Of a stretch of 64,000 nt of DNA, positions 3,005-57,167 are shown piece after piece. Under the pieces are notes generated by a model. The model saw nothing but the letters and a program-made list of their open reading frames with translations, was not told the origin of the DNA and made no database searches. The stretch is from assembly GCA_958009085.1 (NCBI GenBank), contig OY253677.1, positions 868,001-932,000 of the forward strand, written 5' to 3'. Position numbers and translations under genes: made by a program. The DNA comes from Protoeuglena noctilucae (taxonomy: Eukaryota). How positions within the stretch are numbered: position 1 is the stretch's first letter; each line of letters opens with the position of its first letter.

Positions 3005-6000
3005 CTACCCCACCACCCCCATGGCCGCCAGCTCCTCGTCGTCCCTCTGCTGCATCGCCGCCTGCGCCACAGCACGTACCGTAGTGCTCGGCCGATCCGG
3101 CTGCCACGACTGCACCGCACGCCACCCCTTGCCGCCCCCCACCGCCCCGCCCACTCCCCCCCCGGCCCCCATCTCAGCCGGCAGCTCCCCCTCCGCAGCC
3201 CCGCGCCACTCCGAGTCTTGGTGCACGCGGTCAATGGGGATGGACCGCCCCTTCAATGCAACGCGTGAGAAGGGGAGGTGACCTGTTTCCAAAGCCCTCA
3301 GCTCGCACTCGTCTCTTTCGAAGAAGTGCCCGCATGGTCCCACGCATAAGGGGGTGTCGGGGTCCATGGATCGGAAGTACTGGGATGGGACGCCCGGGGT
3401 GGGCCAGGTGCGGATGAGCACCTCGGAGCGGCGCAGGGCGAGCAGGACGTCGCTGCATGGGGGGGGGAGTGAGTGAGAGTGAGATAGGAGAGGAGAGGGG
3501 TGAGGGTGCGGGTGAGAGGTGTAAGGGTGTGAGGGCGAGGAGGACGTCGCTGGCGAGAGAGAGGGAAGGGGTGGGGGTGAGAGTGATAGCGGTAGTGATA
3601 GTGGTAGTGGTAGTGATAGTGGTAGTGATAGTGGTGATAGTGAGAGGTGTTAGCAGGCGCAATGAGCGGGGAAGGTTGTTAAACACACAACAGAACGGTT
3701 GAATGGCAGACGCAAACAGCAGCCGCGCTGCCCTCACGTTCATCACTCTCAACCCTCAACCTCCACCCTCACCTGCACCACTACCACCATCCCCTTACCC
3801 CTACCCTCACCCCTCACCACTACCCCCGCCCCCCAAAAACAACAAAAACAACAATCACCCCCCCCCCCACCCCACCAACCCCTCACCGGTCCACCACGAT
3901 CGGCGACCCGAGGTCCCTCTGCGACGTGAACGGGTCCAGCCGCCCCGCCACCACCTCCCGCGCATCGGCCGTCCCGTCATCCAGCCTTAGAGTGTCCGCA
4001 TCCTCCCCCCGCTCCTCCCGGCCCCCCATGTCGCCCCCCAGCGCCGCCACCCCCCCCCTCGCCCGCTCAAGCACGTTCCCCGGCGGCGGCTCCTCGTCCA
4101 GCAGCCGCAGCGCCTCTTCGTCCGACACACCCGGCGCGAGTTCGAACTCCACCAGCGGCAGGTGCTCGAACGTCAAATAGGACCGCACGAACGGCGCCGT
4201 GCAGTGGCTGCAGAAGTCCCCATGAGGGTTGAGCAGCGGGTTGACCGCCCCGCACCGATAGCAGATGGGGACCAATTCCTCAGGATCCGATAAAGGCTTG
4301 GACCGCACGTGCATGGCCAAGGCGTCCAGCCTCTCGCGCTCGGCGGGGGGCAGACGCAGCTCGTTGGTCTTATCCAGAGCGGTGCGCGCGAGCTTGTACG
4401 CCCCCAGCTCCTGCGCCGTGCGGGCCAGGCACCCCAGCACCCGCGACAGCCGCACGCCCCTCGGCGCCGGTTTGGACGCCCCAGCCGCCGCCAGTTTCAT
4501 GTACAGGTGCCGTGCAGCGTTGAAGAGGACGTCCGCGGTGACGGTGCGGAAGGGCTCGGTCTCGGCCGATGCCACCAGATTGTACAGGTAGTGCACCTCG
4601 CTCTCCCAGTAAAGGGCGCTCCACGCATCCAGCCCCCGCCTTGCTTCCGGCCCCGTCGCCACCGCCACCTCCTCCAGTCGCTCCAGACTGAGCGAGTAGA
4701 GGTAATAGGACGCGTCCCTGTGCCTCTCCTCGTCGATGGCGTTAGACGCGAGTGCGCGCAACACGGCGGCGGCCTCCCGTGGGTGTCCCGCTCTCTTGTA
4801 TGCCACGCGTGCCTCCTCGAATCGATCATTCGCCGAGAGCCAGCGGGCGTAGGGGAGGAGGACCTGGGGGGGTGTGTGGGGGGGGGGGGGGGTGGGGGTG
4901 AGTGGAGATGAGGGGAGGGGGGGGGGGTTGAGTGAAGATGAGAGGGGGAGGGGGAGTAGAGTGCGCATGTGAGAGGGGTAGCATGAGGAGTAATGACGCT
5001 ATGCGACGCCCACGCATCCCCCATTCCCCTCACCTCTTCCACCATCTCACAGAGTACCTCTCCATGACCTGGAATGCATCTCAACACATATTCACTCATC
5101 AAACTGACACACTCACCTCTACTCATAACACACACATACCCCTCACCTCTTCCTAAGCTCTAAGTACCTCTCCATCACCCACTCCCAATCCCTCACCTCT
5201 TCCTTTAACTCCGGGTACCTCTCCATGACCTGGAATGCGTCCCCCCACTGATGCATCTCCACGTGCACCAGTGCCACGCCCTTCATGTCCCCCAGCCGCA
5301 TCATGGTGTCGCGGGCGTACTGGAGCTCCTTGGCCCTGGGGGTGGGTGGGGAAAAGAGGGATATATCTGTTGATGTTTGATATACATTCGGAGTTATCAC
5401 ACACAGTGACTGGCACCCTTACAGCAGTGATCGCATCACCAGACACAACCCCCTACCTCGAACAGTGCTAAGTGCGCTCACCCCAGAGCCATCCCACAGT
5501 CTAACTACCAACGCATCCCCCTCAACCCAAACCCCCCTTCCCCAAACTTCACCTCGGGAAGTGCTTCGCACACTGCTCCAGCAGCTCCCCTTACCAACCC
5601 CACCAACCTCGATCTCACCTTACTCAGTGCTTAGCGCCCTTATTACACAACCCCAACAACCCATCTGAATTGCATTGCTGGCCGCCACCCCCCCACACAC
5701 CCCTACAACACCCCTCACCCCAAACAGTGCTTAGCGCACCCATCCCACAACACCAAACACATGACATCCCCCCCCCTCACCAACCCCCCCCCCCACCACC
5801 ATATCTCACCTCAAAAAGTGCTTGGCGCACTGCTCCAGCAGCTCCCCGTGTTTGTCCTTCTCCATCCCCTGCGATATCTTGAACAGGTCGCCCCACGCCC
5901 TCTGCCGCACCAGCAGCTGCACCGCCTTGTCGTGCTTGCCCGCCCTCACGTACATGTGTGCGGCGGCACCGAAGTCCCTCATCTGCTCCGACCAATCGGC

Positions 6001-9000
6001 CTGTTTCATGACTAGTTGCTGTGCCATGGGGTGCGCGTCCGCGTGTTTCTCCATAAATGCGTGGGCGTGGTCGAACTGTCGCAAGTCGCCAAACATCTGA
6101 AGGGCCATCTGCAGGGCGCCTGCTTCCTTGTAGGCCTCGGCGGCGCGGTCGAAGCGGCCCATGCTGGCTGGGGGGAAGAGGGTGGGGGGGTGGGGGTGTG
6201 CTTATACACGCACTAGTGAACTCACCACATCAGTCACCTCACCATCTCCCATGCATCATGCATCCGTTGTCATCTATATTATCCATATCCATACCCAAGC
6301 ACTCCGCCTTGACCACCATGGGCTTCTCCCCCTGCTTGTACATGCATCCATTCGTCGACTCACCATCTCATTTACTATATACAAATACTAAGCTCAAATA
6401 TCATGATATCATATACCCACTCACCTAAGCACTCCGCCTTGACCACCATGGGCTTCTCCCCCTGCTTGTACGCCCGCTCGGCCCTGGCCACCACCTCGAG
6501 CATCTTTGCGTCCCTCAGCCGCTGGTAGCACTTGCGGGCCAATTCCGTCTCCATTGCCAGTAAACAGCTCTCCGCCAGCCCCCGCCAGGCCAAAGGGGGC
6601 ATCCCCAGGCATGCCACCTCGTATGCCGCACCCCATTCCCCCGCCTCTGCGTGTTGCTGCACCAATGCGCTCAGTGGCAGGTCTAAGGCTTCCAAGCGAG
6701 CCTGGCGCAGGACGAAGGCGCGGGAGCCAAGGCAGCCGATGACTGGGGGGGAGAGGGGGAGGGGGGGGGGGTGGTGGTTGAGTCCGGGGGGGGGATTGGT
6801 GGGGGTGGAGTGCAGGGGTGACGAGTGGGGGTGGCAAGGGTGGTGAGTAAGGGTTGGAAAGGGTGGGATGGCAAGCATTGCGAGGTGCGCACCTATCAAA
6901 GGTAAAGCAACACACCTCCACCACCCTCACCCAATCCACAACCAACCAACCAAACATCCCCCCTCTACCCATCCCCCCCCTCGCTTCCTCACCAAATCAA
7001 CAACAAAGCACACCCCCTCTACTCATCCCCCTCCCCCCACCCCATCCCTCACCCATCCCCTGGTTGGCCACCCGCACGGGCGCCAGCCCCCCCGACCGCA
7101 CGCAGAGGTGCGTGCCCGTGGAGTAGCAAAGCATGCCGTCGCAGTCCGCGTTGAAGCAAGCGCTGCTGACCCCATTCTCCAGAAAGCTCGCGGCCCTCGT
7201 GCGGGGGTCATAGGTGGCCAGCTTCCCCTCGGCATCCACCACCGCCAGCCGCGTGCGATTGAGGGACCAGTCCAGGCACCGCACCGGCCCCCCGTGCTGC
7301 GCCAGATCCACGGGAAAGGGGTTGTTGAGGAAAACGTGCTGCACCGCGCCGGTCGCCAGTCCCAGTAGCAGCCCCTCCTGCCCCGGCTTGCCCCCGACCG
7401 CTTTGACGAACTTCACGGGGGCATCCATCACCCACTCCCGCTGCAGCTGGTCCGAGAAGGAGTAGGCCTGCAGCTTGGCGCCCTGGCACAGCACGATGTG
7501 CTGGGAGGTGACCAGCATGAGCTCGCAGTCCATGCTGCGGTCGATCTGGGGGGGTGAGGGGGGGGTGTGTTGCGATGGTGCTTGTGCAGTGGATACGTAC
7601 TAGGCACAGTGGGGGAATGAGGGGGGAGATGGATGGGAGTGTTAGTGCAGTGCAGTAAGGGCTTCCCACGTCATCCACTGACACACAACCACCCTCCTCA
7701 CCTGGGCGATCTTCTTCTGAGGTGCAAGCACCCCGCTTCAGCTACCATACATGCTATACTGTACCGATACTTAAAGCTAACTACAACGCTGTTATCCACC
7801 CCTCACATCCCCCACTCTCTCACCTGCGCGATTTTCTTCTGCGGCGCGGGCGCCCCCCCCTGCCCCCCGTCGCTCCCCAAATCGTACACCAACACCCGGT
7901 CGCCCAGCTGCACGGCCAATCGATCCCCAAACACCGACACCTTCTTGACGAAACTGCTGCACCGGATGGCCAGCCTGGCTCCCGTGGCCAAGTGCCGGAC
8001 CATGACTGTGGTCAGCCCCTCTCGGTAGGCGTAGCGCCAGCGGTGCAGGGAGTGGACCAGGCCGGCGTCCACCTCGTACACGCTCAGCTGCGGGCGATGG
8101 CAGTTGGCGAAGTAACTCATGGCCCCCACCTCCATCACTGCTGTCTGGCATACAATCTCCTGTATTATCTCATTTACATGCTCCTCTCCATTCCTCACCT
8201 GCCCCGACTTGGTCCCCACCGCCACCACTGCTGTCCATACAGTGACATGCTATCTTTTATAGTATGCCACATGCCTGTCTCTCATTCTCACCTGCCCCGA
8301 CTCGGTCCCCACCGCCACCAAACTCGGCTCCGTCTCTGGCCGCGGGGGCGACCACACCGCCGCCGCCCACACCCAAGCCGTGTCTGCCACCAAATCACTC
8401 AGCTTGCGGCCGTCCGGCGTCACCAGCGCCACTGCCTTGGTCGAGCAGGCGGTCACCAGCACCTCCCCGCCCCCCAGCGCGGCCAGGCTGTTGGGGCAGA
8501 AGGGCTGGGCGTGGTCGGCCTGCAGGGTGCCGTCGCGGGCGTACATGGAAATGGAGCGGGACCAGTCGCCGATGCTGCGGGTGGAAGGGGCGATAGGGTG
8601 TGTGGGAGGATATATGGAGATGGAGCGGGGCCAATCACGCTGTGGGTGTTAGGTCAGGGTGGTGTGGGGGTGCGGTGTCGATGGCGACAGAGGGAAGCAA
8701 AGGTACTGAAAGCGTGTAACAAGAGATGCAGTGAGGCTGGAAGACCTTGTGCACCCCTCCCCCTCCCCCCACCACCACTATCAAACCCCCCCCCCCCCCC
8801 CCCTCCCGCCCCCCCTTACCTCAGCCTTAGGTCCCCCGAGGGTCCATCCACGCTCCAGCAGAGCCCCCACACCGGCGCCTCCCTGACAATCCTCGACGTC
8901 TCCGCCCCCGCCTTGTCCCGCATCACCACGACCCCATCCAAATGCCCTGTTGCCAGAACCATGCCGTCCGGGCTCCACGCGGCAGACACCACCTTCGCGT

Positions 9001-9551
9001 GCACCTTGACCTTTTGTACCGAGCTCTGCTCCGGGTGCCAGAGGCCCAAGTCGTCGACCGCCCCCGACGCCAGCTGCTGCGTGATGGCGTTGTAAGCTAG
9101 GCACTGCACGGCGGTCGAGTGCGAGTACTTAAGCAGGCCCGTGGCCTCCTTGCTCCACACGATCACCACGCGATCCGCGCCGCCCGTCGCGAAGCGCTGC
9201 CCGTCGAAGGCGTAGGCGGTCGCGTAGACGGCGTCCTTGTGGCCCTTCATCGTGTGCATCAGGATGCCCGCGCGGACCTTGTACACGTGCACGCGCGAGC
9301 CGATGCCGGCCACGACCGTCTCCCCGTCCGGACTGCAAGGAGACGGCGGGAGAGGAGCCGGGGTGGGCGGCGGGCGGCGCCGGGAGCGCGCGTACAAGGC
9401 GCGCATGTTGGTTCGAACTAGCTGGCCTCGCGAAGGCGGTGCCGCGGGGCCGGGCGCGACCGCCCGCTCGCCTGAAGCTCATCGAGTAACACACGAGACG
9501 CACGCCATCCTTCTCCGGCGGCACGTCGGACCACAGGTGCGACGCCCGCAT
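3005..9551 (-). CDS. IFT122: Intraflagellar transport protein 122 (IFT-A, WD40 + TPR-like), about 10 exons
   Basis: Spliced translation MRASHLWSD...FSPDGETVVAGIGSRVHVY...GHKDAVYATAYAFDGQRFATGGADRVVIVW, RYAYREGLTTVMVRHL, LLPYARWLSANDRFEEAR, CYRCGAVNPLLN, FEHLPLVEFEL, CGHFFERDE. Splice phases are consistent throughout. Confidence 0.95.
3584..3642. repeat. Intronic (GTA/GTG/ATA)n microsatellite
   Basis: gtgatagcggtagtgatagtggtagtggtagtgatagtggtagtgatagtggtgatagt inside the last IFT122 intron. Confidence 0.8.
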
Positions 9552-9944: not shown

Positions 9945-12069
9945 ATGGCGAGCACGACGGTGGTTTCGCAGGTGGGGATAAGGCGCATGCGGCCTTGCCG
10001 GGGCGTGGCGGGCTCCGATATGGCCGCCAGGACGCCTTGCGTATCTTCGAAAGTGCCACCGCCCATCGCGCCCTCTGGATTCTTTCCATCGACCCGGGCC
10101 CTCGCACCCGACGCTGTAGACCCCGCTCCCCGCGCGGGCTCGCGTGTATGCGGCCTCCCGCGCAGCCCACATCTTCATTTGGATATGCTTTGTCGCGTCG
10201 TCTCGTTTCAGATGCCTCCTTTGCCCCCACGACGACGGCCCCTGCCCTGACCCTCTTCGATATCTTGAGCCACCATAACCTGCTTTTTCCCGGCGTCTGC
10301 CGCGCCTGACGCTCGCCTGAGCATCGCACCCGGCACAATTGCTCCACCCGGCCCCGTCGGACACCGCAGGCCGGCCCCTCGCTGCGCCCGGCGACCTCCC
10401 GGCCCCGCTGCCCCTCTCCGCAGGCCGTGCGGGCGCGCGACGTCCGCGCGAGCGCCGTGTCGCAGCAGACCCGGGCGCCGAGCGCCGTGACGAGCGACGC
10501 CAAGCTCCCGCTGCTCCTGCGGGCCCTCAAGGTGGGTCGGAAACTCGCCCGTGCCCTTCGCTCCCCCGCGCTGCCTCGTCACGCACCCCGCCCGCCCTGC
10601 TGCCCGCCGCCCCGCCACCCCGCCGCCCCATCCTCCTCGACATCCCGCCACGCTACTACCGCAGGGTGACAGGGTGGAGCGGCCCCCCCGTGTGGATGAT
10701 GCGCCAGGCGGGCCGTTACCAGGTGGTGTACCAGGAGCTGTGCAAGAAACACCCGACGTTCCGCGAGCGTTCCGAGAACGCGGACCTCGCCGTGGAGATC
10801 TCCCTGCAGCCCTACCGCGCCTTCCGCCCCGACGGCGTCATCCTGTTCTCTGACATCCTAACTCCGCTCCCCGCGATGAACATCGCGTTCGACCTCCCGC
10901 CCGGCAAGGGCCCCGTCATCCTGAACCCGATCCGCACGGCTGCCCAGGTGCGCGAGGTGACGACGGGCGACGACTTCACCTTCCGCGAGACAAACCACTA
11001 CGTGGGCGAGGCCCTTACCCGGCTGCGGCAGGAGGTGGGGGACGAGGCGACGGTGCTGGGCTTTGCGGGGTGTCCCTACACTTTGGCGACCTATATCATC
11101 GAGGGCGGGTCGTCCAAGAACTTCACACACATCAAGCGGATGATGCTGGCCGAGCCCGCCACGCTCCACGCCCTGCTGGACAAGCTGGCGACCAACGTGG
11201 CGGACTACGTGCGGTACCAGGCCGACGCGGGGGCGCAGGTGGTGCAAATCTTCGACAGCTGGGCCGCGCACCTGATGCCCCAGGACTTTGACGAGTTCTG
11301 CGCTCCGTACAACAAGGTGAGGGGTGCTGGGTTGGTGTGGTGGCGGCATATGCGGTGGGGGACCATGTCGTGGGGGTGGGTGAGGGTGCTGGGAGCCCTG
11401 GAAGAGAGTGGCAGAGTTTTGATTCGTTGTTTCTTCATCAGTATCAATATCCCTTACTTTGATTGGGTTGCACTTGACACACCACCTCACCCCTCACCCC
11501 TCACCCACCCCCTCTCCCCAGCGCATCATCGACGAGGTCCGCCGCACGCACCCCGACCTCCCCATCATCCTCTACATCTCCGGCAGCGGCGGCCTGATCG
11601 AGCGCATGGCCCAGTGCGGCCCGGACGTGCTGTCGATCGACCACTCGGTGGACCTGGGGGACGCCATCCGGCGTGGGGGCAGCCGGTTCGCCTACCAGGG
11701 GAACCTCGACCCGGCCATCCTGTTCGCGGAGAAGGTGAGGGAGTATCAGGGGTGGGGTTGGTGACAGCGGTTTGGAATGCAAATGGGGCTGTGCGGTGTG
11801 TTAGCTGAGGAAGAGTGGGGATGGTGACAAGGCCATCTCATCACACCCATCTCTCTGTGTCTCTCAACTCACCAAACCAATCTCCCATTCACCCTCTTCC
11901 CCCCCCCCCTTCCCAGGACACGATCCGCGCCCGCACCCACGCCATTGCGCGCCAGGCCAGGTCGGCGGGCGTGCGCCATGTGATGAACCTGGGCCACGGG
12001 GTGCTGCCCACGACCCCCGAGGACCACGTGGGGGCGTTCTTCGAGGCGGCCAAGGAGTTCCGGTACTGA
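9945..12069 (+). CDS. UROD/hemE: Uroporphyrinogen decarboxylase, plastid-targeted (apparent 1-nt insertion at 10683-10689)
   Basis: [68 protein letters not shown]. The Ser/Arg/Ala-rich N-terminus resembles a transit peptide. Confidence 0.95.
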
Positions 12070-12772
12070 AGTGGGTAAAGGGGGACTGTCACGACATGGA
12101 TGTGGGTGGTACAGCGGTGCTGGGTGTGGGTATCGACAGGGGGGTTGGCACTGAAAAGGTGCTGAGACATGGAGGGGAGCGAAGGGGTGATGGAATGGAT
12201 ACTGATACGAAGGAGTGGGGGGTTGCTGGGATGGTGTCACTCACGCGGACGGGGTGCGGGGGAGGGATGGAATTGACGAAGCACACATGGGGTGGCATGG
12301 CAGGTGCACAGGGGTCGCTCTCAATGCTGCTTGCTCGCGAGTGCCGGTGGTGCTGAAAGACGATGCGATCGGTAGTGCGCATTCGGGTTCACCTTTGCAA
12401 GTGGGTGGGGTGGGTGTCACACGAGGGGGAGCGTGAGCATGTGCGTCATGCGGGATGTGGTTTTACTAGGCGTAGTTGTGCCCTACGATTCTGCTCTATT
12501 CCTAGCGGATTCTGTATATGGGGTCAGACGGGGGGAGATGAAGATGGGTGGCGGTGTGCTGCTGGGCCGCCCCTCTGCTGCAGTGTTGGTGTGGAGGGTG
12601 ATGCGGGTGCAGGGTGCGCGTGGTTGCACTCGAGAGGACCGCGCAGTTGAAGGGAAGAGGAGACGAGAGAGCAATAGCATAGCTAGATCAAGCGTATCCA
12701 GACGAGCACAAGACAAGCGCACGCGCACACGGAAACCTGAGTCCGCTTGTATCTTCCATCAACAGCACCGCT

Positions 12773-15700
12773 TCATGCATTCCGCATCGCCCCCACCCGC
12801 GGCCCCTCCCCTGCAGCCGCAGCCTCCGCTCCACCCCCCGCATCCCCCTCATCCCCACTCTCGCTGCCCCCGCTTCCCCCCGCATCGCTGCTAGAGGCAT
12901 CACTGGCAGCCGCAGTAACACCCTCATGGGTAGTTCCACCCACAGTGATATCACCAGCGCTTCCCTTGCCCCTGCTGCCACCACGCCCCACCTCACTGCC
13001 AACGTCGCTGCCACCATCGCTGTACCCATCGCTGCCACCATCGCTGGAGCTCTCCTCATCCCAGGCATCCGAAGATTCCGAATCGTCAACCCTATAGCTA
13101 ACAACAACCCGTGAGGGCCTGCCTCTCATTGACACCCCACCCTTCCCCGTCCCACGCATCCCTGCACTCCCATCAGCCCTCTCCCCACCCGCACCGCTGC
13201 TCGTGGCGACAGCCCCGTATCTGCCATCGCCAACTCGCCCACTCTTGTCCCCACCAGCCCCACTCCTGCTGCGCTCCGCACCCCTCCCACTCTCATCACC
13301 CACACCCGTACCCTCTCTCTCCACTGACCGAGCCCCCACCCCTCCCATCTGACCCCCCCCATCCCTTTCTGCTAATCCTGTCCCCACCAGTCCCATCTGA
13401 GGGTACAGCGTCTGGCCCTGGGACTCTGCCGTGGTCAGCGCACGCAGCCAGTCCTTGACGGGCGCCAGAATCTGCAGGAAACGCGAAGAGGGGGGGGGGG
13501 GTTGTATGAAGAAAAAGCGAGGAGCAAGTGTGTGTAGGAAAGACTCACTGCCGCAGCGCTGTGTTGCGGTGACACGTGCTCGCAACAGTGCATGGTATGC
13601 TATTCCGTGTTACCGTCACTCCCCATCCGGACATTATGCAGTTTCAACTCTCACCTTATCCGCCAGCGTCCCCCTGTCCACGTCTTCCATGCATGTGTCA
13701 CTGTTACCCCTCACTCACCTTATCCGCCAGTGTCCCCTTATCGACGTCATCCGGTGCCGAGGGTGGGAAGTCCATCCTCAGGTCTCGCTCGGCCGAGTAC
13801 GCACGGAGCTCCATGGCACGGAGCTCGTTGCCTGCGATCATGGCATGGGATGGGAAGGGTGAGGGAATGGGAATGGTGGAATGTAGCATGGTTGCCAGAT
13901 GGGGTGCATATCATACACCCACACACACGCACACACACCACCCCCCACATTCAAACACTCACCCATCCTCTCCTCCATCTCCGCCCACGTCAGCCACACT
14001 GTCTGGTTCCCCGGGTCGCACTTCACTCCGCATTTGAACAGCTCCCTCGCCACCGCCCCGTTGCCCTCTTTCTCCTCCATCACACCCCACGCGTGGAACA
14101 CCCGCGCCGCTTTGGGGGACTGCGGGTCGCACCAGAGGGCCTGGCGGAACAGGTCCCTGCGATGAGCACAGCGAGAGTGATGGTATGCTGAAATGTGAGA
14201 AGCAGGTCTTGCTGATTAAGTATGACCAATGGCCATCTGTACTCGCCTGGCCCTGTCTGCGTTCCCCGCCTGGTGTTCCAGGATGGCCCATGCCTGCCAC
14301 GCCGCCATGTGGCGCGGCTGCACGCGGATGGACTTGGCAAAATACGATCGGGCACTCTTCAGGCGACCATCCTCGGCCTCCATCACGCCGAGAGCCTGGG
14401 GTGGGGGTGGGGGGTGGTGCGGGTGTGGGTGTGGGTAGCAGTGGGGGTGTGGGTGTGGGTGTGGGTAGCAGTGTGGGTGTGGGTAGCAGTGTGGGTGTGG
14501 GTGCGGTTGAGCTGCACCGTCACTGTCGTTGCAAGTGTGACTGCGACTGTGTTGACATCTATGCATCTCATCTCGCCTGCAGTAGGACGTGGTCGGTGCG
14601 GTTGAGCTGCACCCCCGTCTCGAGTAGCTTCCGGGCCGCCTCCCTCGACCCCCGCTCCTTCTCCACTTTGGCCCACGCAGAGTAGACGTGGCGGGCGCGG
14701 GGGTTGGCCTCGATGGCGCGGCGGAAGAGGCGCCTGGGGTGGGTGGGGGGAGGGGGAGAAGTTATAGGAGGTGAGAAAGGTGAGTGGCACGGCAAGAGGG
14801 GTTAGCGTGACCCACCCATGTCCCTCCCTCACCTGGCCAACACCATGTCCCCTCGCCTCATCCCCCACCAATCACCCACCCTCTCCACCACCCCCACCAC
14901 CCTCACCTGGCCAGCACCACGTCCCCCCCCTCGGCCTCCAGCTGCGCCCAGTCCTTCCACAGCGCCACGCTCTTCGCTCCCAGCGGCGTCTCCGTGCCCT
15001 CCCGGAACCACTGCCGCGCCTCCGCGGGGCGCCCCAACCGCACGCACAGCATGGCGAGGGAGTGGTACAGGTGCGAGTTGCCGTCCGGGTCCCTCAGCTC
15101 CCGCACCCCGCGCACGAAGAGGTCCCGCGCACGCAGCAGCTCCCCATGCCGCATCTCCAGCATCCCCCAGCCGTGCCAGGCGGGGGCGTGCGAGGGGTCC
15201 GCGGCCGTCGCTGCGTCGAAGAGCTGACGGGCGCGGGAGACGTTGCCGCGGCGGGACTCCAGCGTCGCCCACGCCTGGGGGGGGTGGTCAGGGACGTGGT
15301 GAATGAATTGTGGAGTGCTCGTTTTGACACGTGAATATCCAATCACTGTGATCATTTCTCTTTTCGTGCCCCTGTGCAAGCGGTCGTGCATGCTCGCTCG
15401 CCCGTGAACGCTCCCTTGCCTGCCAGATGAATGCGCTCGTGCCTCCCAGCGCCTGGCATCCCACGTCGTAGAGCCTCGCGGCCTCCTCCTCCCGCCCGTC
15501 CTCCACTAGCAGCTTCCCCAGGCACACATACCCACGGGCGTCCTTGGGGTCCATCGCGATCACGCGGCGGAAGTTGGACTCGGCGCTGCGATAAGCGGAA
15601 CGGTACAGCGATATGATGTATTATGGCAGCGCGGGGACGTCGCGAGGTGCGCGGCACGCGTGCCATCAGCCGGCCTCTGCTGTGCGGGGCGTGGACGGAG

Positions 15701-16047
15701 CGCGCGCCGGGCGCGCCGCGGGCACCTGTCGAGCAGCCTCCGCTTCGTAGCCGCGTTGAACGTGTTGCGGCTCTTGCGCAACTCCAGGCGGCCGTTGTAG
15801 ATCAGCAGGTCGCGGTTTATCTTGAGTGGCTTTGCCGAGGGGAGCCCCTCGCCGCCGGAGGGCCCCGGTCCGTCCGATCGGCCGCCGTTACCGAACATCG
15901 ATCGAACTCGACCTTTGCGGTCCCTCGCGCGATCCCTGAGGGACGATGCAACGCTCCCCTGCAGCGCGTGTGCAGGCGGTGCATCCCACCCCGCGCTCGC
16001 CCCGCCGCTGCGGCACGCGATCCCAATGCGAGCCCGACAGGTGCACA
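12773..16047 (-). CDS. HCF107/MBB1: HAT/TPR plastid psbB/psbH mRNA maturation factor (HCF107/Mbb1 family)
   Basis: KPLKINRDLLIY, DPKDARGYVCLGKLL, GCQALGGTSAFIWQ|AWATLESRRGNVSRARQLFDAATAADPSHAPAWHGWGMLE, further HAT repeats, and a low-complexity acidic C-terminus. Confidence 0.88.
14420..14503. repeat. Intronic (GTGTGG)n / GTAGCA minisatellite
   Basis: Read directly inside an HCF107 intron. Confidence 0.8.
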
Positions 16048-16649
16048 TTGATCGGAATGGGCTGATGGCGGCCGCCAATGTCCCCGCGGCGGACGTGGAC
16101 GCCGCTTCCTGGCCCCTTGAGCCCTGCGAGTGTACGGGAGCGGACAGGGTTCTCAGGGAGCGCGGCGGTCAGCCCAGTGACTTCCACGGCGGGCTCTGCA
16201 ACGCACCAAGGGCGCCGGGGCCCGCGGACCCAGGGCCAGCCCGAGCATGACGGGTCTGCACGGATGGATGCTTGCGAACAGACTCCCCCGCCTTGCTTAG
16301 AGAGGAAAGGGTCACAGATGCCGATGCAGGAACATTAAGCGGCGTTTGCGGACAACGGGACCATGGCATCTGTCGCATCGGCACCAGGCATGCGCGGCTT
16401 TGGGCATGGGCTGCTTCTTGCAGTTTCGAAGCTGCAAGTCATGCTGTGCGCACATCACTGTCATTTCACGGTGTCGCGGACACACACCAGTGTAACAGAG
16501 TGCGCACAGCAGGTGCAAGCTGTCTAATAAGTCCTCCCGCGCCGCGTTCCCGTCCTCTGCCACTCGCCGGAACATCGGCTTCCCGCGCGCACCTGGAGCT
16601 GCCAAATTGCAGCGGCTGCCGTGGCCTGTGTCCTACGGTATTATAAAAA

Positions 16650-19398: not shown

Positions 19399-21921
19399 TC
19401 ATTTCACGCTGACCAGCTCGACCTCAAAGACGAGCGTGGCGTTGGGGGGGATCGAACCCTTGACCCCCTTGGGCCCGTAGGCCATCTGGGGCGGGATGGT
19501 CAGCCGACGACGGTCCCCCACCCGCATCCCCACAATGCCCCGGTCCCATCCCTTGATTACCTCCCCCACCCCCAATCGGAACTTGAAGCTCTTGCTCTGG
19601 TCAAACACGCGCCCGTTGGCCGCCAGCTTGCCGACGTACTTCACCACCACCTGCTTGCCTGCGGGGAGAGAGAGAAGGGGGGAGGTGTTACTGGTCGGGG
19701 AGATATCAGAGGGAGGGGTGACCTGTTGACAGCACACCATCAGCGATGATATGCACCTGTAACACATCGTCAGTGACCCCATGACTAAAAATACACCGTC
19801 ACGACGCCCCCCCTTTGTCACTCGCCTGCCTTGGCCACGGCCCCCCCCGCCTTCCCCACCCCCAGCTGCTCAATCTTGAATCCATTTTCGTACTCCTTCA
19901 CCATCCCAGCCTTGGTCAGGTCCTGCTGCTGAGCGTCACTTGAGCCCTGGGGGGGGGCACGCGAGGTGATCTACTGTGTTACTATTACAATATCACATCA
20001 TGTCGTATCTGCTAGGAGCGTTTATGCAAACGTGACATCGCTATGGACTGTAGATGTCCATGCAATGATGGCGCAGTGACCACGCCACCCATGCGCCCCC
20101 CCCCCCCCGCAATGTCCCTCACCTGCCCCCCCTCCTTGTCCCCCTTGTGGTCATGACCATGGCTGTGACCGTGACCGTGATCACAGTGACTGTGATCGTG
20201 ACCATGACCGTGACCGTGGTCGTGGCTGTGACCGTGGGCACCCTTGCTGTCCTTGCCGTCCGCCTGCGATTGCCAAAGCACGGCACGAAGCGTGTTGTCC
20301 ATGGCACAGCGAGCCATTAGTAAGATTTATGCAACAAATTCTTTTGCCTGTCAAGGAGAGGGAGGACAAACAAGTCTTTACATCAGTTCCCACCACCACC
20401 GCGACTGGACCGTCACCTCGGCCTTCCTCACTTCTCGCCCCCCCACATGACACAACCACCACCCCAACCGTCACCTTGGCCTTCTTCCCCCCCGGCGTGG
20501 CCCCCTGCCCCCCCTCCTCTGCGCGGCGCTTCTTGTCCTGACCACCCGATGCCTTGCCATCACCCTTTGCACCCCCGTTGCCATCCCCCTTCGCATTACC
20601 CTTCGCACCCCCCTTGCCATCCCCCTTGCTCCCCTTCCCCCCCTTCGGCTTCGCATCCTCCTCCTCCTCCTCATCGTCATCATCATCATCCATGTCCTCA
20701 TCATCCTCATCCTCATCATCATCCGAGTCGTCCTCCCCCGCCCCGCCCTTGGCGCCACCGCCCGGCTGCACCGGCTTGCCATCCGCATCGATCTCCTGAA
20801 GAACACAGGCAGACACAGGCAATTGTCAACCATTGCAATGCTATCGAGTTGTGAATTCAAACCCTCTTGATGTGCTTGCACCACGCCACCCCCCACATCA
20901 TGGCACATGCCCTACATCTGCCCCAGTCCCCCCCTTTATGAAACCCCCCAACCACCCCATACTACCCCATCCCTCCCCCAAACACCCCCCCTCACCTCGA
21001 TCTTGACCCGCGAGGCCGGGATGAGCCTTCGCTCCTCCCCGTCCTCCTCGTCCTCATCGCTGTCGGACCCAAGGCCGTACATCTCCGCCAACTCCTCCTC
21101 ATCCATCATCTCTGGGTCCAAATAGTCATCCTCCTCATCGTCATCGTCGTCAACGTCCTCCTCGTCGTACTCGGGGACGTAGTAACCCGACACGTGCACC
21201 TGCGATGGGATGGGCGACGACCGGTGGTGGTGTGGGAGGTGGCTGGAGGTGCGTGGATGGTTGCAAGCGGTGAGCAATGGTGGAGAGAAGGGTGTATACG
21301 GTATACATGCAGCTTATCAGTCGACTGGGACAATGAGGGACAGGACATGTGGGACAGCAGGCATGGATACGGGGGGTACCATAGCAGCCGTGTCCGGAAC
21401 ATCGCGACGGCCGCTGGCCACACACACAGAGCATCCCGGGCGCCCCGGGCGCGGACTAAGGACACGTGACGATGCCAGGGACATGCATGACAACTGTTAG
21501 TATATACGCCAAACACCCTGGCGCACCTCCCCGCCCGTGGCGGTGAACTCGGCGTAGGTGTCAAAGACCAGGTCCAGGGTCTGGCTCTCGGCCTTCCCGT
21601 GCTCCAGCACGGCGATGATGATCTCGTCTCCGAGCTCCGGCTGCTCGTCCTCCTCCTCGGGGTCGCCGCCGGACACACGGACTCGCAGCGTGACGCGGCC
21701 TTTGGTGCCGTCCCCCAGCGCCACCTGCGCGCGCGTGGAAGTTGATGATGCAACCGCTTGCTTCCTGGCAATACACGAGGGTGTCATCGCGCCATCGCGG
21801 CGCAGGAGAGGCGCGGAAGCGGCGCCCCCGGCACCTGGGAGAGGTGCAGCCGCATGGGCTCGGGTGGAGGCACGTACGGGACCGCCTTCCCCGGGCGAAC
21901 GACCGCCCCGAAGAAGCTCAT
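19399..21921 (-). CDS. Nucleolar FKBP (nucleoplasmin-like N-domain, acidic tracts, His-rich exon, C-terminal FKBP PPIase), FKBP53/Fpr3-4 type
   Basis: MSFFGAVVRPGK...LHLSQ, LDLVFDTYAEF, VHVSGY, D/E tracts, VVKYVGKL...FDQSKSFKFRLGVGEVIKGWDRGIVGMRVGDRRRLTIPPQMAYG...IPPNATLVFEVEL. Confidence 0.92.
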
Positions 21922-54800: not shown

Positions 54801-57167
54801 GTCATGACATGCCCCCCCCTCACACCCCTCACCTTCGCACCCCACCTGCGCCACCAGCCCGTAGTACTCAGTATCTCACCCCACCATCCCTCCGTTACCC
54901 CCAGGTCCTCGTGGCTGCCCCCTCCAACGTGGCCGTGGATCACCTGGCAGAGAAGATCGCTGCCACCGGTCTGCGCGTGGTGCGGCTGTGTGCCAGGGCC
55001 AGGGAGGACACGGAGGTGGTGTCGGCGAGCGTAGTGCCGCTCACGCTGCACTACCAGGTGAGAAAGTGTTGTGTGTGTGGTAGCTGAATGCCACTCACGA
55101 TGCACTACCAGGTGAGGGAGTCTGTGGTAGCGTGGCGGCGGTACCGAGCGAGAGGGTGCCAACGAGAGCTAAGGCACTCAAGGGACCTTGTTTAAGCACG
55201 GCAGTTTAGCTCACTCACTTGCTGTAAGGTACCTTCCCCTTCTCTGCTCCCCAGGTCCGCAATGCTGACGTCCCTGAGGCCTTCCGCCTGCGTGCGTTGA
55301 TGAAGCTGAAGGACGAGATCGGCGTGCTGCACGAGAAGGACTCGCGGGAGATGGCCAAGCTGCGCAACATGCTGGAGCGGGAGGCCCTGAGCGCGGCCGA
55401 GGTGGTGTGCTGCACGTGCTCGGGGGCGGGGGACCCCCGCATGGTGGGGCGCAAGTTCCGGCACGTCCTGATCGACGAGGCCACGCAGGCCTGCGAGCCC
55501 GAGTGCCTCATCCCGATCGTCAAGGGCGCGCGGCAGGTGGTGCTGGTGGGCGACCACTGCCAGCTGGGGCCCGTCGTCATGTGCAAGGCCGCCGCCAAGG
55601 CCGGGCTCAACCTCTCCCTCTACGAGAGGCTCATCCTCATGGGCATCCGGTGAGCACAGCACAATTAGGTATCGTAATATCCTTCTAGGAGAGGGCCATT
55701 CTCAGCGTATGACAGGCAGTGAGCGGGTCGCTCTATTGCACATGTGCACGTAACGAAGCTGACTTTCCCTCTGCCGCTGGTAGCATGCGCGCTGTATGCA
55801 CGTGCCCCTCTCCCTCAGCAACCCCATGCGCCTCATCCCCTCCCTCTCTCCCTCCCCAGCCCCGTGCGTCTCCAGGTGCAGTACCGCATGCACCCCTGCC
55901 TGTCCCTCTTCCCCTCCAACACCTACTACGAGGGCACGCTGCAGAACGGAGTCTCCGAGGCACACCGCACGCGGCCCGAGGTTGACTTCCCGTGGCCGGG
56001 TGAGAGACGCCTTGGCCACAAGCGACAGGCACACGATGAGCGTGGGAATGGCGCGACATGTTTAAGCACGCTTGCATGCACTGGATCGTTCCATCGAGGC
56101 GCGCAGAGCGCAGCGCAGTTGCCACGTCGCATGCAAAAACAGCTGCCCCCCCACCCCACCCCACTCCCCCAGGCCCGACCACGCCCATGATGTTCCTGGT
56201 GTCGCTGGGGGCGGAGGAGCTGAGCGGCAGCAGCACGTCGTACCTGAACCGCGCCGAGGCGCAGGCGGTGGAGAAGGTGGTGACGCGGTTCCTGATGAAC
56301 GGGGTGGACCCGGCCCAGATCGGCGTCATCACGCCCTACGACGGGCAGCGGGCGCACGTGGAGGCGGTCATGCAGCGGTCGGGGCCCCTGCGCCAGGAGC
56401 TGTACAAGGCCGTGGAGGTGGCGTCCGTGGATGCCTTCCAGGGCCGGGAGAAGGACTACGTGGTGCTGTCGTGCGTGCGATCCAACGACCGGCAGGGGAT
56501 CGGGTTCCTCAGGGAGCCGCGGCGGCTCAACGTGGCACTCACGCGCGCGCGGTACGGGCTGGTGGTCGTGGGGAACCCCCGGGTGCTGGCCAAGGTGAGG
56601 GGGGAGTGGGCGGGAGTGTCTGTTGCATCCCCATCTGCCTGTCTTTGTGGTCGCCTGACCATACAAGGTGTTCTCGCCACATGCATCTCTGGCCTGTTCG
56701 TTGCAATTTCTCCCGCTCTCCCCCCCCCTCAGCACCCGCTGTGGAACTCGCTCCTCACGCACATGTCCTCCCTGGGGTGCATCGTGGAGGGCACGCTCGC
56801 CCACCTCCGCCCCAGCACCGTGGCCTTCCCCATCCAGCGCCGGCCCTTCCAGTACGTCCCCGAGGCCCACCTCGCGCTCCTCTCCGCCCACACGGCCCAC
56901 GACGCGCCACCCCGCCCGGACTACGAGGACCCGGATGCCGCCCGCGCCCCCAACGGCGCCCAACCGCAGCCGCTCTTCAGCGTCCCCGCCTTCAACCCCT
57001 TCTCCGGCCTCTCCACCCCCGCCCGCCCCGGATCCCAGCAGTCCCAGCAGGGCCTGGCCCCGCCCTTCCTGGACCCCTTCGCCGCGTACCTCGGCTCTGC
57101 ACCCCGCAGCCAGGGCGCCTGGAGCGACTACTCCCTGGCATCGCAGCCCAGCGTGGCAGGGCGATGA
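51866..57167 (+). CDS. UPF1: Regulator of nonsense transcripts 1 (SF1 RNA helicase)
   Basis: CAYCG...[105 protein letters not shown]. Confidence 0.96.

What the first reader, a model, noticed from the sequence alone, without database searches (positions are those of the whole stretch)
3420..8650. Exon-edge echoes: most IFT122 introns hold decayed copies of the adjacent exon end plus its splice site
Seen directly: 6297-6341 is a perfect 45-nt copy of exon end 6427-6471 with its own GT. 7696-7730 copies 7818-7850, and 8193-8228 copies 8286-8320. 5028-5082 and 5141-5180 copy the exon end near 5191-5240. Up to four copies of the 5805-5847 end lie in 5454-5740. Acceptor-side copies also occur (3531-3553 vs 3436-3455; 8608-8646 vs 8541-8580). 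Copies of different divergence coexist. Inference: a recurrent local duplication or templated-insertion process is focused on splice junctions and creates decoy splice sites and raw material for intron gain, sliding or recursive splicing.
Basis: partly seen in the sequence, partly recalled or inferred. Interest (0 to 1): 0.75.

Follow-up and report, generated by a model that had tools for sequence, protein, structure and literature searches.

The report
Exon-edge copies inside algal introns
In a marine green alga's flagellar-transport gene, seven of nine introns hold decayed copies of the neighbouring exon end together with its splice signal; single introns in a few human genes show the same oddity.

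Summary
IFT122 lies on the minus strand (3005-9551; 10 exons, 9 introns). Seven of its 9 introns hold one to four copies of the adjacent exon edge plus its splice site: five on the donor side, two on the acceptor side. Alignment scores are 35-93. None of 300 shuffles reached them, and the best of 144 non-cognate pairs scored 26. Contigs from an independent metagenome carry the same copies, so they are not an assembly artefact.

Across my 105 predicted introns in the window, 13 of 210 edge tests pass a 99.9% null. Seven are in IFT122, four in the TPR gene next-but-one and two in the other 87 introns. Eleven of 14 copied donors score as high as real donors.

Best reading (0.55): repeated short tandem duplications spanning exon-intron junctions. 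They are tolerated because the outermost site is used, as in the human F7 intron-7 minisatellite. The exon-derived part stays recognisable far longer than the intron-derived part.

A truly junction-targeted mutation process is not excluded (0.2). Intron birth, introner elements and recursive splicing find no support. It is a new variant of a known kind and moderately interesting. RNA use of the decoy sites could not be tested.

The parts
3005..9551 (-). IFT122 gene. Exons: 9551-9472, 9332-8820, 8574-8292, 8087-7824, 7545-7053, 6742-6425, 6167-5810, 5335-5197, 4863-3887, 3452-3005.
   Evidence: Homologues at 33-49% identity; tblastn exon map; junction sequences; alignment with 6 homologues; Pfam TPR_IFT122 and Zn_ribbon_IFT122 on exon 9. 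RNA contig joint 3452>3887, and an RNA piece at exactly 8820-9332.
8575..8819 (-). Intron 2, with an acceptor-side echo at 8611-8648: a copy of the exon-3 start plus CAG, 69 nt upstream of the real acceptor.
   Evidence: family D16 (85% over 26 nt); score 35, 0 of 300 shuffles. Pseudo-acceptor scores 4.1 against 11.8 for the real one.
8088..8291 (-). Intron 3, with two donor-side echoes of the exon-3 end. The young one is 8189-8227 (28 of 29 exon-derived bases identical, donor CAG|GTGAGG). The old one is 8120-8145.
   Evidence: families D7 and D15; one search score 66; for the acceptor at 8088; unit alignment; donor score 14.0 against 12.3 for the real donor.
7546..7823 (-). Intron 4, with a donor-side echo at 7694-7734 (donor CAG|GTGAGG), 122 nt downstream of the real donor.
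   Evidence: score 42, 0 of 300 shuffles; donor score 13.8 against 13.9.
6168..6424 (-). Intron 6, with a donor-side echo at 6293-6341: 46 of 47 exon-derived bases identical, of which 45 are consecutive. Its donor is degraded to GG|GTATGG. It lies 130 nt downstream.
   Evidence: family D6; one search score 93; donor score -0.4. Short-read contigs of X1 and X2 stop at 6326, and X1 resumes at 6442.
5336..5809 (-). Intron 7, with four donor-side echoes: 5714-5756, 5614-5656, 5517-5590 and 5443-5485.
   Evidence: families D3, D5 and D10; one search score 59; donor scores 10.9, 10.7, 6.0 and 4.0 against 10.8 for the real donor.
4864..5196 (-). Intron 8, with two donor-side echoes: 5135-5179 and 5027-5080. 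Both have the donor GAG|GTGAGGGG.
   Evidence: families D9, D12 and D13; one search score 64; donor scores 13.4 and 13.4 against 13.6.
3453..3886 (-). Intron 9, with an acceptor-side echo at 3532-3552: CAG plus 18 nt of the exon-10 start, 97 nt upstream of the real acceptor.
   Evidence: family D18 (95% over 21 nt); one search score 37. Pseudo-acceptor scores 9.1 against 9.9. The RNA contig uses the real acceptor at 3452.
13472..14906 (-). TPR/HAT-repeat gene (predicted span 12089-15898) with donor-side echoes at 13650-13688, 14823-14867 and 14497-14518. The last copies exon positions -37 to -16 and does not include the junction.
   Evidence: scores 53, 48 and 39; sequences; donor scores 12.8 and 14.7; Pfam TPR families on exon 14909-15274. 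Intron bounds come from my own gene finder.
55058..55254 (+). Predicted intron of a plus-strand gene, with a donor-side echo at 55089-55116. This is a clean 54-nt tandem unit.
   Evidence: one search score 46; sequence; donor score 14.7 against 13.2. The intron-derived part is also similar (5 of 500 shuffles).
20264..20474 (-). Predicted intron with a short donor-side echo at 20409-20429.
   Evidence: score 32 (threshold 28); sequence; donor score 9.9 against 10.8.

Best explanation
The echoes are remains of repeated short tandem duplications (units of about 50-260 nt) whose unit straddled an exon-intron junction.

Each event leaves the gene intact. The outermost site still gives the correct mRNA: the most upstream donor, or the most downstream acceptor. 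The inner copy becomes intron. Later events duplicate earlier copies as well, so introns grow from their edges.

The intron-derived part of each unit decays quickly through substitutions and many small insertions and deletions. The exon-derived part stays recognisable because its partner, the exon, is held by selection. It may also be refreshed by short-tract gene conversion from the exon.

Shown: the copies, their nesting, their strong splice signals and their presence in an independent sample. Inferred: the duplication mechanism, the tolerance through choice of the outermost site, and gene conversion.
For: 1. Copies run across the junction and include the splice site. This holds for 10 of 11 robust donor-side cases and both acceptor-side cases.
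2. Copy and original lie 50-260 nt apart on the same strand.
3. The cleanest case (55033-55123) is a head-to-tail 54-nt unit whose intron part is also similar.
4. Intron-derived flanks keep weak similarity in several units. Of 11 units tested, 3 were reached by 0-5 of 500 shuffles and 5 by 16-40 of 500.
5. Intron 7 shows nesting. The exon end and copy 3 are 257 nt apart, and copy 1 and copy 4 are 262 nt apart (D3 and D10). That fits one ~260-nt duplication carrying an older copy along.
6. Exon-versus-copy differences fall 4, 4 and 11 on codon positions 1, 2 and 3, over 72, 73 and 73 sites (binomial p = 0.024). This is close to the 1:1:2 expected if the copy drifts freely and the exon changes only at silent sites. 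The copies therefore do not look protein-coding.
7. The stretch from each junction to the far end of its last copy adds up to 1145 of 2674 intron bases in IFT122. Without it the mean intron would be 170 nt; the median of 87 other introns is 145.
8. Small indels still arise in these introns. Run X2 has a 7-nt insertion behind 8250, between the exon and its copy.
9. The only RNA joint shown inside the gene uses the real acceptor (3452), although the copy 97 nt upstream scores as high.
10. The arrangement is documented in humans. In F7, 6-16, CBS, LAMIN B2 and PDGF a minisatellite's first unit spans an exon-intron boundary. Only the first donor is used in F7, LAMIN B2 and PDGF; 6-16 and CBS also use two pseudo-sites (PMC1557585: abstract, Introduction and Discussion read).
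Against: 1. In the two youngest copies the exon-derived part is 46/47 and 28/29 identical, while the rest of the unit aligns poorly. One recent tandem event with neutral decay should leave both parts alike. This needs gene conversion, a much faster decay of intron sequence, or a copying event that took only the exon edge plus about 5-25 nt.
2. Three of 11 units show no flank similarity at all (103-268 of 500 shuffles).
3. No duplication confined to intron or intergenic DNA was seen in about 33.6 kb of noncoding sequence at the stricter settings. A uniform duplication process would be expected to give some.
4. Donor-side copies outnumber acceptor-side ones by 11 to 2 junctions.
5. Eleven of the 13 hits lie in two genes. 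The model does not explain this.
6. No copy-number difference was seen between the window and the contigs of X1 and X2.
7. Which donor is used could not be read: 56 joints were not displayed.
Confidence: 0.55

Rival explanations
1. A mutational process really targeted at splice junctions. Breaks or stalled forks near splice sites would be repaired by copying a short local template (templated insertion or template switching). Only the exon edge plus a few intron bases would be copied into the intron.
For: The conserved segment is usually just 15-47 exon bases plus the splice site and about 5-25 intron bases. Nearly all non-microsatellite local direct repeats that touch noncoding DNA have an exon-edge partner. 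The youngest copies sit in much more diverged surroundings.
Against: The clean 54-nt case and the 260-nt nested unit of intron 7 are ordinary tandem duplications. Several flanks keep weak similarity. The absence of purely intronic repeats could be a detection effect. G-rich starts of introns, the obvious candidate for break-prone DNA, do not differ between introns with and without copies (G fraction p = 0.60, longest G run p = 0.75). Eighty-five of 87 introns outside the two genes have no copy.
Confidence: 0.2
2. The copies are kept by selection as working elements: decoy sites that tune splicing, alternative donors feeding nonsense-mediated decay, or recursive splice sites.
For: Eleven of 14 copied donors and one of two copied acceptors are as strong as real sites. 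The exon-derived part is better kept than its flanks. Two in-frame options exist: a 15-nt piece at 7702-7716 and a 57-nt extension at 8088-8144.
Against: The codon-position pattern fits free drift of the copies. Copies are of very different ages, and 3 of 14 donors have decayed. As acceptors the copied donors score -15 to 4.8 against a real mean of 10.4, so recursive use is unlikely. The introns are only 139-474 nt long. Use of the inner donor would shift the frame, or meet a stop in the 93-nt intron-3 unit; I read this from the unit lengths 122, 130, 50 and 93 and the open frames. Homologues show no room for the extra residues.
Confidence: 0.08
3. The copies are scars of intron birth, either by tandem duplication of an AGGT-containing exon piece or by insertion of an introner-type transposon with a target-site duplication.
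For: Both routes leave direct repeats of gene sequence at intron ends; I saw only search listings for PMC3265369, PMC4974935 and PMC9860276. IFT122 is intronless in the twelve nearest relatives found in metagenomes, loci L001-L012; the gene map was checked in seven of them.
Against: Birth by duplication predicts that the intron's 3' end copies the upstream exon end, or that its 5' start copies the downstream exon start. Here the copies lie mid-intron, carry their own splice site, and are followed by an unrelated C-rich tail and acceptor. No repeat family is shared among the 105 introns: 3 short hits of 19-20 nt among 125 blast rows. Copies of 15-47 nt are much longer than the target duplications I recall for introners (not seen in any call).
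Confidence: 0.05
4. Assembly artefact.
For: The source assembly is unknown, and de Bruijn contigs break at the 45-nt repeat.
Against: Contigs of an independent marine-metagenome sample (X2) run through every copy with 0-2 other letters. The copies are diverged, not identical.
Confidence: 0.01

Closest known systems
Minisatellites whose first unit spans an exon-intron boundary: human F7 intron 7 (37-bp units), 6-16 intron 2, CBS intron 13, LAMIN B2, PDGF intron 4. Source: Borensztajn et al. 2006, PMC1557585; abstract, Introduction and Discussion read.
   Same: A direct repeat begins in the exon, so the donor sequence recurs inside the intron as strong 'pseudo-sites'. The gene still works. In F7 only the most upstream site is used.
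   Different: The human cases are single introns with 5-25 near-identical head-to-tail units and variable copy number. Here there are 1-4 copies per intron, of very different ages, with mostly unrecognisable intron-derived parts. They sit in 7 of 9 introns of one gene and on the acceptor side too. No copy-number variation was seen. Which site is used is untested for the donors.
Intron gain by tandem duplication of an exon segment holding AGGT. The Rogers model is recalled. Hellsten et al. 2011 (PMC3265369) and the potato RdRp case (PMC4974935) were seen as search listings only. Lehmann et al. 2010 (PMC2891723): abstract read.
   Same: Short tandem duplication inside a gene duplicates a splice-site sequence, and the extra copy ends up as intron.
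   Different: In that model the duplication creates the intron, and the repeats sit at its two ends. Here the introns have their own unrelated 3' parts, and the copies lie inside them.
Introner elements, i.e. transposon-made introns. Gozashti et al. 2022 (PMC9860276) was seen as a search listing only. Huff et al. 2016 is recalled.
   Same: Gene sequence next to a splice site is duplicated, and intron content grows.
   Different: No shared element exists among the 105 introns of the window. By contrast, one metagenome relative (L015) does have a palindromic repeat family filling its IFT122 introns.
   Same: The exon end plus donor is repeated in the intron, and the transcript uses the first copy.
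   Different: That is one intron with one uniform array. Here there are many introns with few, decayed copies.

Membership tests
Boundary-spanning minisatellite with 5' pseudo-sites (F7 intron 7 type) | A direct repeat whose first unit contains the exon-intron junction | tested here: met
   Copies include the last 15-47 exon bases and the splice site in 7 of 9 IFT122 introns.
Boundary-spanning minisatellite with 5' pseudo-sites (F7 intron 7 type) | The donor sequence is reiterated downstream at near-full strength | tested here: met
   Eleven of 14 copied donors score 9.9-14.7; the real ones score 10.8-13.9.
Boundary-spanning minisatellite with 5' pseudo-sites (F7 intron 7 type) | A head-to-tail array of near-identical units with variable copy number | tested here: not met
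   There are 1-4 copies, and the intron-derived parts are mostly unrecognisable. No copy-number difference between the window and the X1 and X2 contigs.
Boundary-spanning minisatellite with 5' pseudo-sites (F7 intron 7 type) | Only the outermost site is used in RNA | tested here: inconclusive
   One joint uses the real acceptor of intron 9, and RNA pieces end at the real exon-2 edges. Joints at the donor-side copies were not displayed (56 rows cut).
Intron born by tandem duplication of an AGGT-containing exon segment | The intron's 3' end repeats the upstream exon end, and/or its 5' start repeats the downstream exon start | tested here: not met
   Intron 3' ends are C-rich and unrelated. Donor-probe hits lie mid-intron with their own GT. 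Acceptor-probe hits keep their own CAG.
Introner / MITE-derived introns | One element family present in many introns | tested here: not met
   All-against-all blast of 105 introns gave only 3 short complex hits between different introns (19-20 nt).
Recursive (ratchet) splice sites | A functional 3' splice site placed directly against a 5' splice site inside a long intron | tested here: not met
   As acceptors, 13 of 13 copied sites score -15 to 4.8 (real mean 10.4, sd 3.2). The introns are 139-474 nt long.
Recursive (ratchet) splice sites | RNA intermediates spliced to the internal site | not testable with these tools

The most novel reading that the evidence does not exclude
In this alga a junction-linked copying process would repeatedly paste the last 15-50 bases of an exon, with its splice site, into the adjoining intron and keep refreshing those copies from the exon. 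Candidate mechanisms are template switching or short-tract conversion started at splice-site DNA. Introns would then grow from their edges, and a gene could carry a dozen full-strength decoy sites. That would also imply that this spliceosome picks the first donor by position, not by strength.
Probability: 0.2. Interest if true: 0.7.

Novelty: new variant of a known kind. Interest (0 to 1): 0.45.

Why it matters
If the pattern holds genome-wide, it would show a simple way for introns to lengthen from their edges: 43% of IFT122 intron length lies within these copy arrays. It would also give a natural test set of a dozen full-strength decoy donors and one full-strength decoy acceptor. With these one could ask how a green-algal spliceosome chooses among equal sites, a question so far addressed experimentally mainly with the human F7 minisatellite. 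The much better survival of the exon-derived part of each copy is a small open problem of its own: gene conversion from a constrained partner, or very fast intron turnover. For annotation there is a practical point: my own gene finder was fooled into a false 15-nt exon by one copy.

Tried and rejected
All controls are limited to this 64-kb window.
- Orthologous introns. The first metagenome scan found nothing. The second found 30 loci. The nearest IFT122 relatives (L001-L012, about 39% identity) are intronless in the seven I mapped. L015 is a different, intron-rich organism. Its exon ends fall near three of our introns, but with at least 18 introns in 888 residues this may be chance, so I did not use it.
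- Proteins of the same organism that would reveal the spliced junctions. None was found with exon 9 (best 49-50% identity) or with exon 7 (no hit).
- RNA use of the decoy donors. The one read-laying run showed only one joint inside IFT122. One RNA contig of 2059 nt lies on 4110-4861. Its remaining 1306 nt equal, within 2 nt, the summed lengths of exons 8 to 5 (1308). That fits normal splicing but is only arithmetic, not an observed alignment.
- G-rich intron starts as break-prone sites: no difference. Introns with copies do have longer C runs at their 3' ends (p = 0.0125) and lower GC. I could not interpret this.
- Introner or transposon origin: no shared family.
- A single-strand gene finder gave mirror-image false genes. 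I replaced it with a two-strand model.
- The 'aligned identity' figures from global alignment with cheap gaps (first table) are inflated and one row failed. I rely instead.
- One of the 13 hits (acceptor side, 12888-13305) lies in a repetitive, coding-looking stretch. It is probably a gene-model error, so I count 12 as robust.
- Three literature searches found no report of such copies across many introns of one gene. The third search returned nothing relevant.

Full report
WHAT IS THERE

The region is GC-rich (0.61-0.72). It encodes an IFT122 homologue on the minus strand.
- Exon 9 finds 41 IFT122-type proteins. The best is 49% identical and none comes from the same organism.
- Pfam gives TPR_IFT122 and Zn_ribbon_IFT122 on that exon.
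- I mapped exons with tblastn, read the junction sequences and aligned the model with six homologues.
- That alignment showed a 19-residue insert at the start of exon 4 that no homologue has. Moving the intron-3 acceptor from 8144/8145 to 8087/8088 removes it and keeps the frame.

The resulting model has 10 exons and 9 introns:
- I1 9333-9471. It probably has a GC donor, AG|GCGAGC. My gene finder preferred a GT donor at 9426, which would add residues that homologues lack.
- I2 8575-8819, I3 8088-8291, I4 7546-7823, I5 6743-7052, I6 6168-6424, I7 5336-5809, I8 4864-5196, I9 3453-3886.

RNA support is thin.
- One metatranscriptome contig joins 3452 to 3887.
- Another lies exactly on exon 2 (8820-9332).
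- A third ends at 4861, two bases from the exon-9 start.
- Fifty-six further joints were not displayed, and the call is capped at one.

The organism is a marine green alga without a named close relative in the libraries.
- Its UROD exon has unnamed 99% matches and 70-74% matches to chlorophytes.
- The DNA is held by marine metagenomes and metatranscriptomes.

For a formal test I took, for each junction, 60 exon bases plus 10 intron bases. I aligned this probe locally to the rest of its own intron.
- Seven of 9 introns score 35-93. None of 300 dinucleotide shuffles reaches the score in any of the seven.
- The other 11 of the 18 tests score 12-25.
- 144 non-cognate probe-intron pairs reach at most 26.
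- Five introns carry donor-side copies (I3, I4, I6, I7, I8). Two carry acceptor-side copies (I2, I9).
- With the corrected intron 3, a second and older copy of the exon-3 end appears at 8120-8145.

The copies are not an assembly artefact. Contigs of an independent metagenome sample (X2) run through all of them with 0-2 other letters. The de Bruijn contigs of X1 and X2 break at 6326, and X1 resumes at 6442. That is what a 45-nt exact repeat would cause, though this last step is my inference.

HOW GENERAL IS IT?

No genome is held, so I annotated the window myself with a small two-strand hidden Markov gene finder trained on the window.

Checks on that annotation:
- It reproduces the three RNA-supported introns inside its predicted genes (11317-11521, 11735-11916, 18382-18552). 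It misses one (10532-10664), which I added by hand.
- The largest exon of 11 of the 14 predicted genes tested has a Pfam match in the predicted frame.
- It makes errors: a false 15-nt exon at 7702-7716, made of an echo, and the I1 donor.

Results with 105 introns of at least 60 nt (shorter predictions dropped; IFT122 replaced by my curated model):
- 13 of 210 edge tests reach 28, the 99.9th percentile of 4200 non-cognate scores (maximum 31).
- Seven are in IFT122.
- Four are in the TPR/HAT gene at 12089-15898. One of those, in a repetitive coding-looking stretch, I regard as a model error.
- One is at 55058-55254 and one at 20264-20474.
- So 10 of 18 introns in two genes carry robust copies, against 2 of 87 elsewhere (Fisher p = 8.5e-8). 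UROD, which lies between the two genes, has none.

An annotation-free scan of all diagonals 25-700 nt apart gave:
- 11 non-microsatellite local repeats at 21 of 24 matches. Equally many distant diagonals gave 0, 0, 0, 1, 0.
- Under several settings, 9-19 exon-to-noncoding pairs and 1-16 exon-exon pairs (mostly a coding repeat).
- Only 1-6 noncoding-only pairs. The ones I inspected, at the strict settings, are copy-to-copy pairs inside I3 and I8; the 6 at the loosest setting were not inspected.
- Control means of 0-2.7.

ANATOMY OF THE COPIES

A typical copy holds the last 15-47 exon bases, the splice site and about 5-25 intron bases. It lies 50-260 nt from the original.

Splice-site strength:
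- On a donor matrix from 87 introns of other genes, 11 of 14 copied donors score 9.9-14.7.
- Their real partners score 10.8-13.9. The training mean is 9.4 and the 99th percentile of intronic GTs is 8.8.
- Three have decayed: -0.4, 4.0 and 6.0.
- The copied acceptor in I9 scores 9.1 against 9.9 for the real one, yet the RNA contig uses the real one. The copied acceptor in I2 is weaker, 4.1 against 11.8.
- Using an inner donor would add 50-257 nt. By my reading of the unit lengths and the frames, it would shift the frame or meet a stop.

Drift of the copies:
- Exon-versus-copy differences fall 4, 4 and 11 on codon positions 1-3 (p = 0.024).
- This is what free drift of the copy plus silent change in the exon predicts.

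Intron length:
- Copy arrays account for 1145 of 2674 intron bases in IFT122.
- That explains why its introns (median 278) are longer than the rest (median 145).

MECHANISM

Pointing to ordinary tandem duplication across junctions, repeated and nested:
- The 54-nt case at 55033-55123 is a clean head-to-tail unit.
- Intron 7 shows a ~260-nt unit that carried an older copy along (D3 and D10).
- Several intron-derived flanks keep weak similarity. Of 11 units, 3 were reached by 0-5 of 500 shuffles, 5 by 16-40, and 3 by 103-268.

One point does not fit a single neutral event. In I6 and I3 the exon-derived part is 46/47 and 28/29 identical, while the rest of the unit is barely alignable. Three explanations are possible:
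- The exon refreshes its copy by short-tract gene conversion.
- The AT-richer, slippage-prone middle of these introns turns over very fast. A 7-nt insertion variant behind 8250 in X2 shows that such changes are current.
- Only the exon edge was copied.

This same fact weakens the argument for a junction-focused process. If intron sequence becomes unrecognisable this fast, purely intronic duplications of equal age would not be seen. I therefore treat 'focused on junctions' as open (0.2) and not shown.

Other points:
- G-rich intron starts, a natural candidate for fragile DNA, do not differ between introns with and without copies.
- No introner-like family exists among the introns.
- The layout expected for intron birth by duplication is absent.
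- As acceptors the copied sites are poor, so recursive splicing is unlikely.

COMPARISON WITH WHAT IS KNOWN

The closest known case is the set of human minisatellites whose first unit spans an exon-intron boundary: F7 intron 7, 6-16, CBS, LAMIN B2 and PDGF. In F7, identical downstream pseudo-sites are functional but silent, because the most upstream site is chosen (PMC1557585; abstract, Introduction and Discussion read).

This scan has already noted one such case on other DNA, an invertebrate LIG1 (note e1-7880541).

The present case works the same way in outline but fails one defining feature of that family. It is not a uniform, variable-number array. It consists of few, old and young, decayed copies. 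Its unusual side is the spread: most introns of one gene, several of a second, both splice-site types.

Three full-text searches found no report of that. The library lacks most subscription journals.

VERDICT

- Most likely these are tolerated junction-spanning duplications (0.55).
- This is a new variant of a known kind. Interest is moderate (0.45).
- The main limits are a single 64-kb window, no RNA read-out at the decoy sites and no close relative.

Noticed in passing
window 8088-8144: An in-frame alternative acceptor at 8144/8145 would add 19 residues (57 nt, no stop) to exon 4. Part of that stretch derives from the old copy of the exon-3 end. Six homologues have no such insert, so I placed the acceptor at 8088. 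No RNA evidence exists either way.
   Followed up: partly
window 7702-7716: The copy in intron 4 is preceded by CTCAG and followed by GTGAGG. Together these make a 15-nt in-frame piece that would repeat the residues KKIAQ of the exon end. My gene finder called it an exon. Homologues leave no room for it.
   Followed up: partly
window 9471 and 14576: Two introns seem to use GC donors (AG|GCGAG): IFT122 intron 1 and the predicted intron 14396-14576 of the TPR gene.
   Followed up: no
L015:1000-5800 and 11100-16400: A metagenome relative's IFT122 locus is filled with a repeat family that has about 40-nt terminal inverted repeats. Copies start right at exon ends (for example near 14891), which looks like introner/MITE-type introns. 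This is the opposite of the window, where introns share no family.
   Followed up: partly
L001, L002, L004, L005, L007, L009, L012: IFT122 is intronless (a single tblastn segment of about 3.6 kb) in these GC-rich (0.62-0.71) marine metagenome relatives, at about 39% identity to the window's protein.
   Followed up: partly
window 4866-4898, 8786-8805, 14400-14466: G or C homopolymer-rich intron ends attract many short contigs from all four runs, with depth spikes up to thousands and joints between these places. They seem to be a low-complexity motif shared by many loci.
   Followed up: no
window 8250 and 2535: The independent sample X2 differs by a 7-nt insertion (TATCTTT) inside intron 3, between the exon and its copy, and by a 21-nt deletion at 2535.
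   Followed up: no
window 20151-20236 and 20558-20629: Short in-frame tandem repeats (27-63 nt spacing, and one 36-nt unit) lie inside predicted exons of an acidic low-complexity gene.
   Followed up: no
window 3589-3642: A GTGATAGTG-type microsatellite lies in intron 9. Short-read contigs break there (3553-3647).
   Followed up: no
all 105 predicted introns: Introns with donor-side copies, and the introns of the two copy-rich genes in general, have longer C runs in their last 40 nt (median 6 against 4, p about 0.01). I have no explanation.
   Followed up: partly
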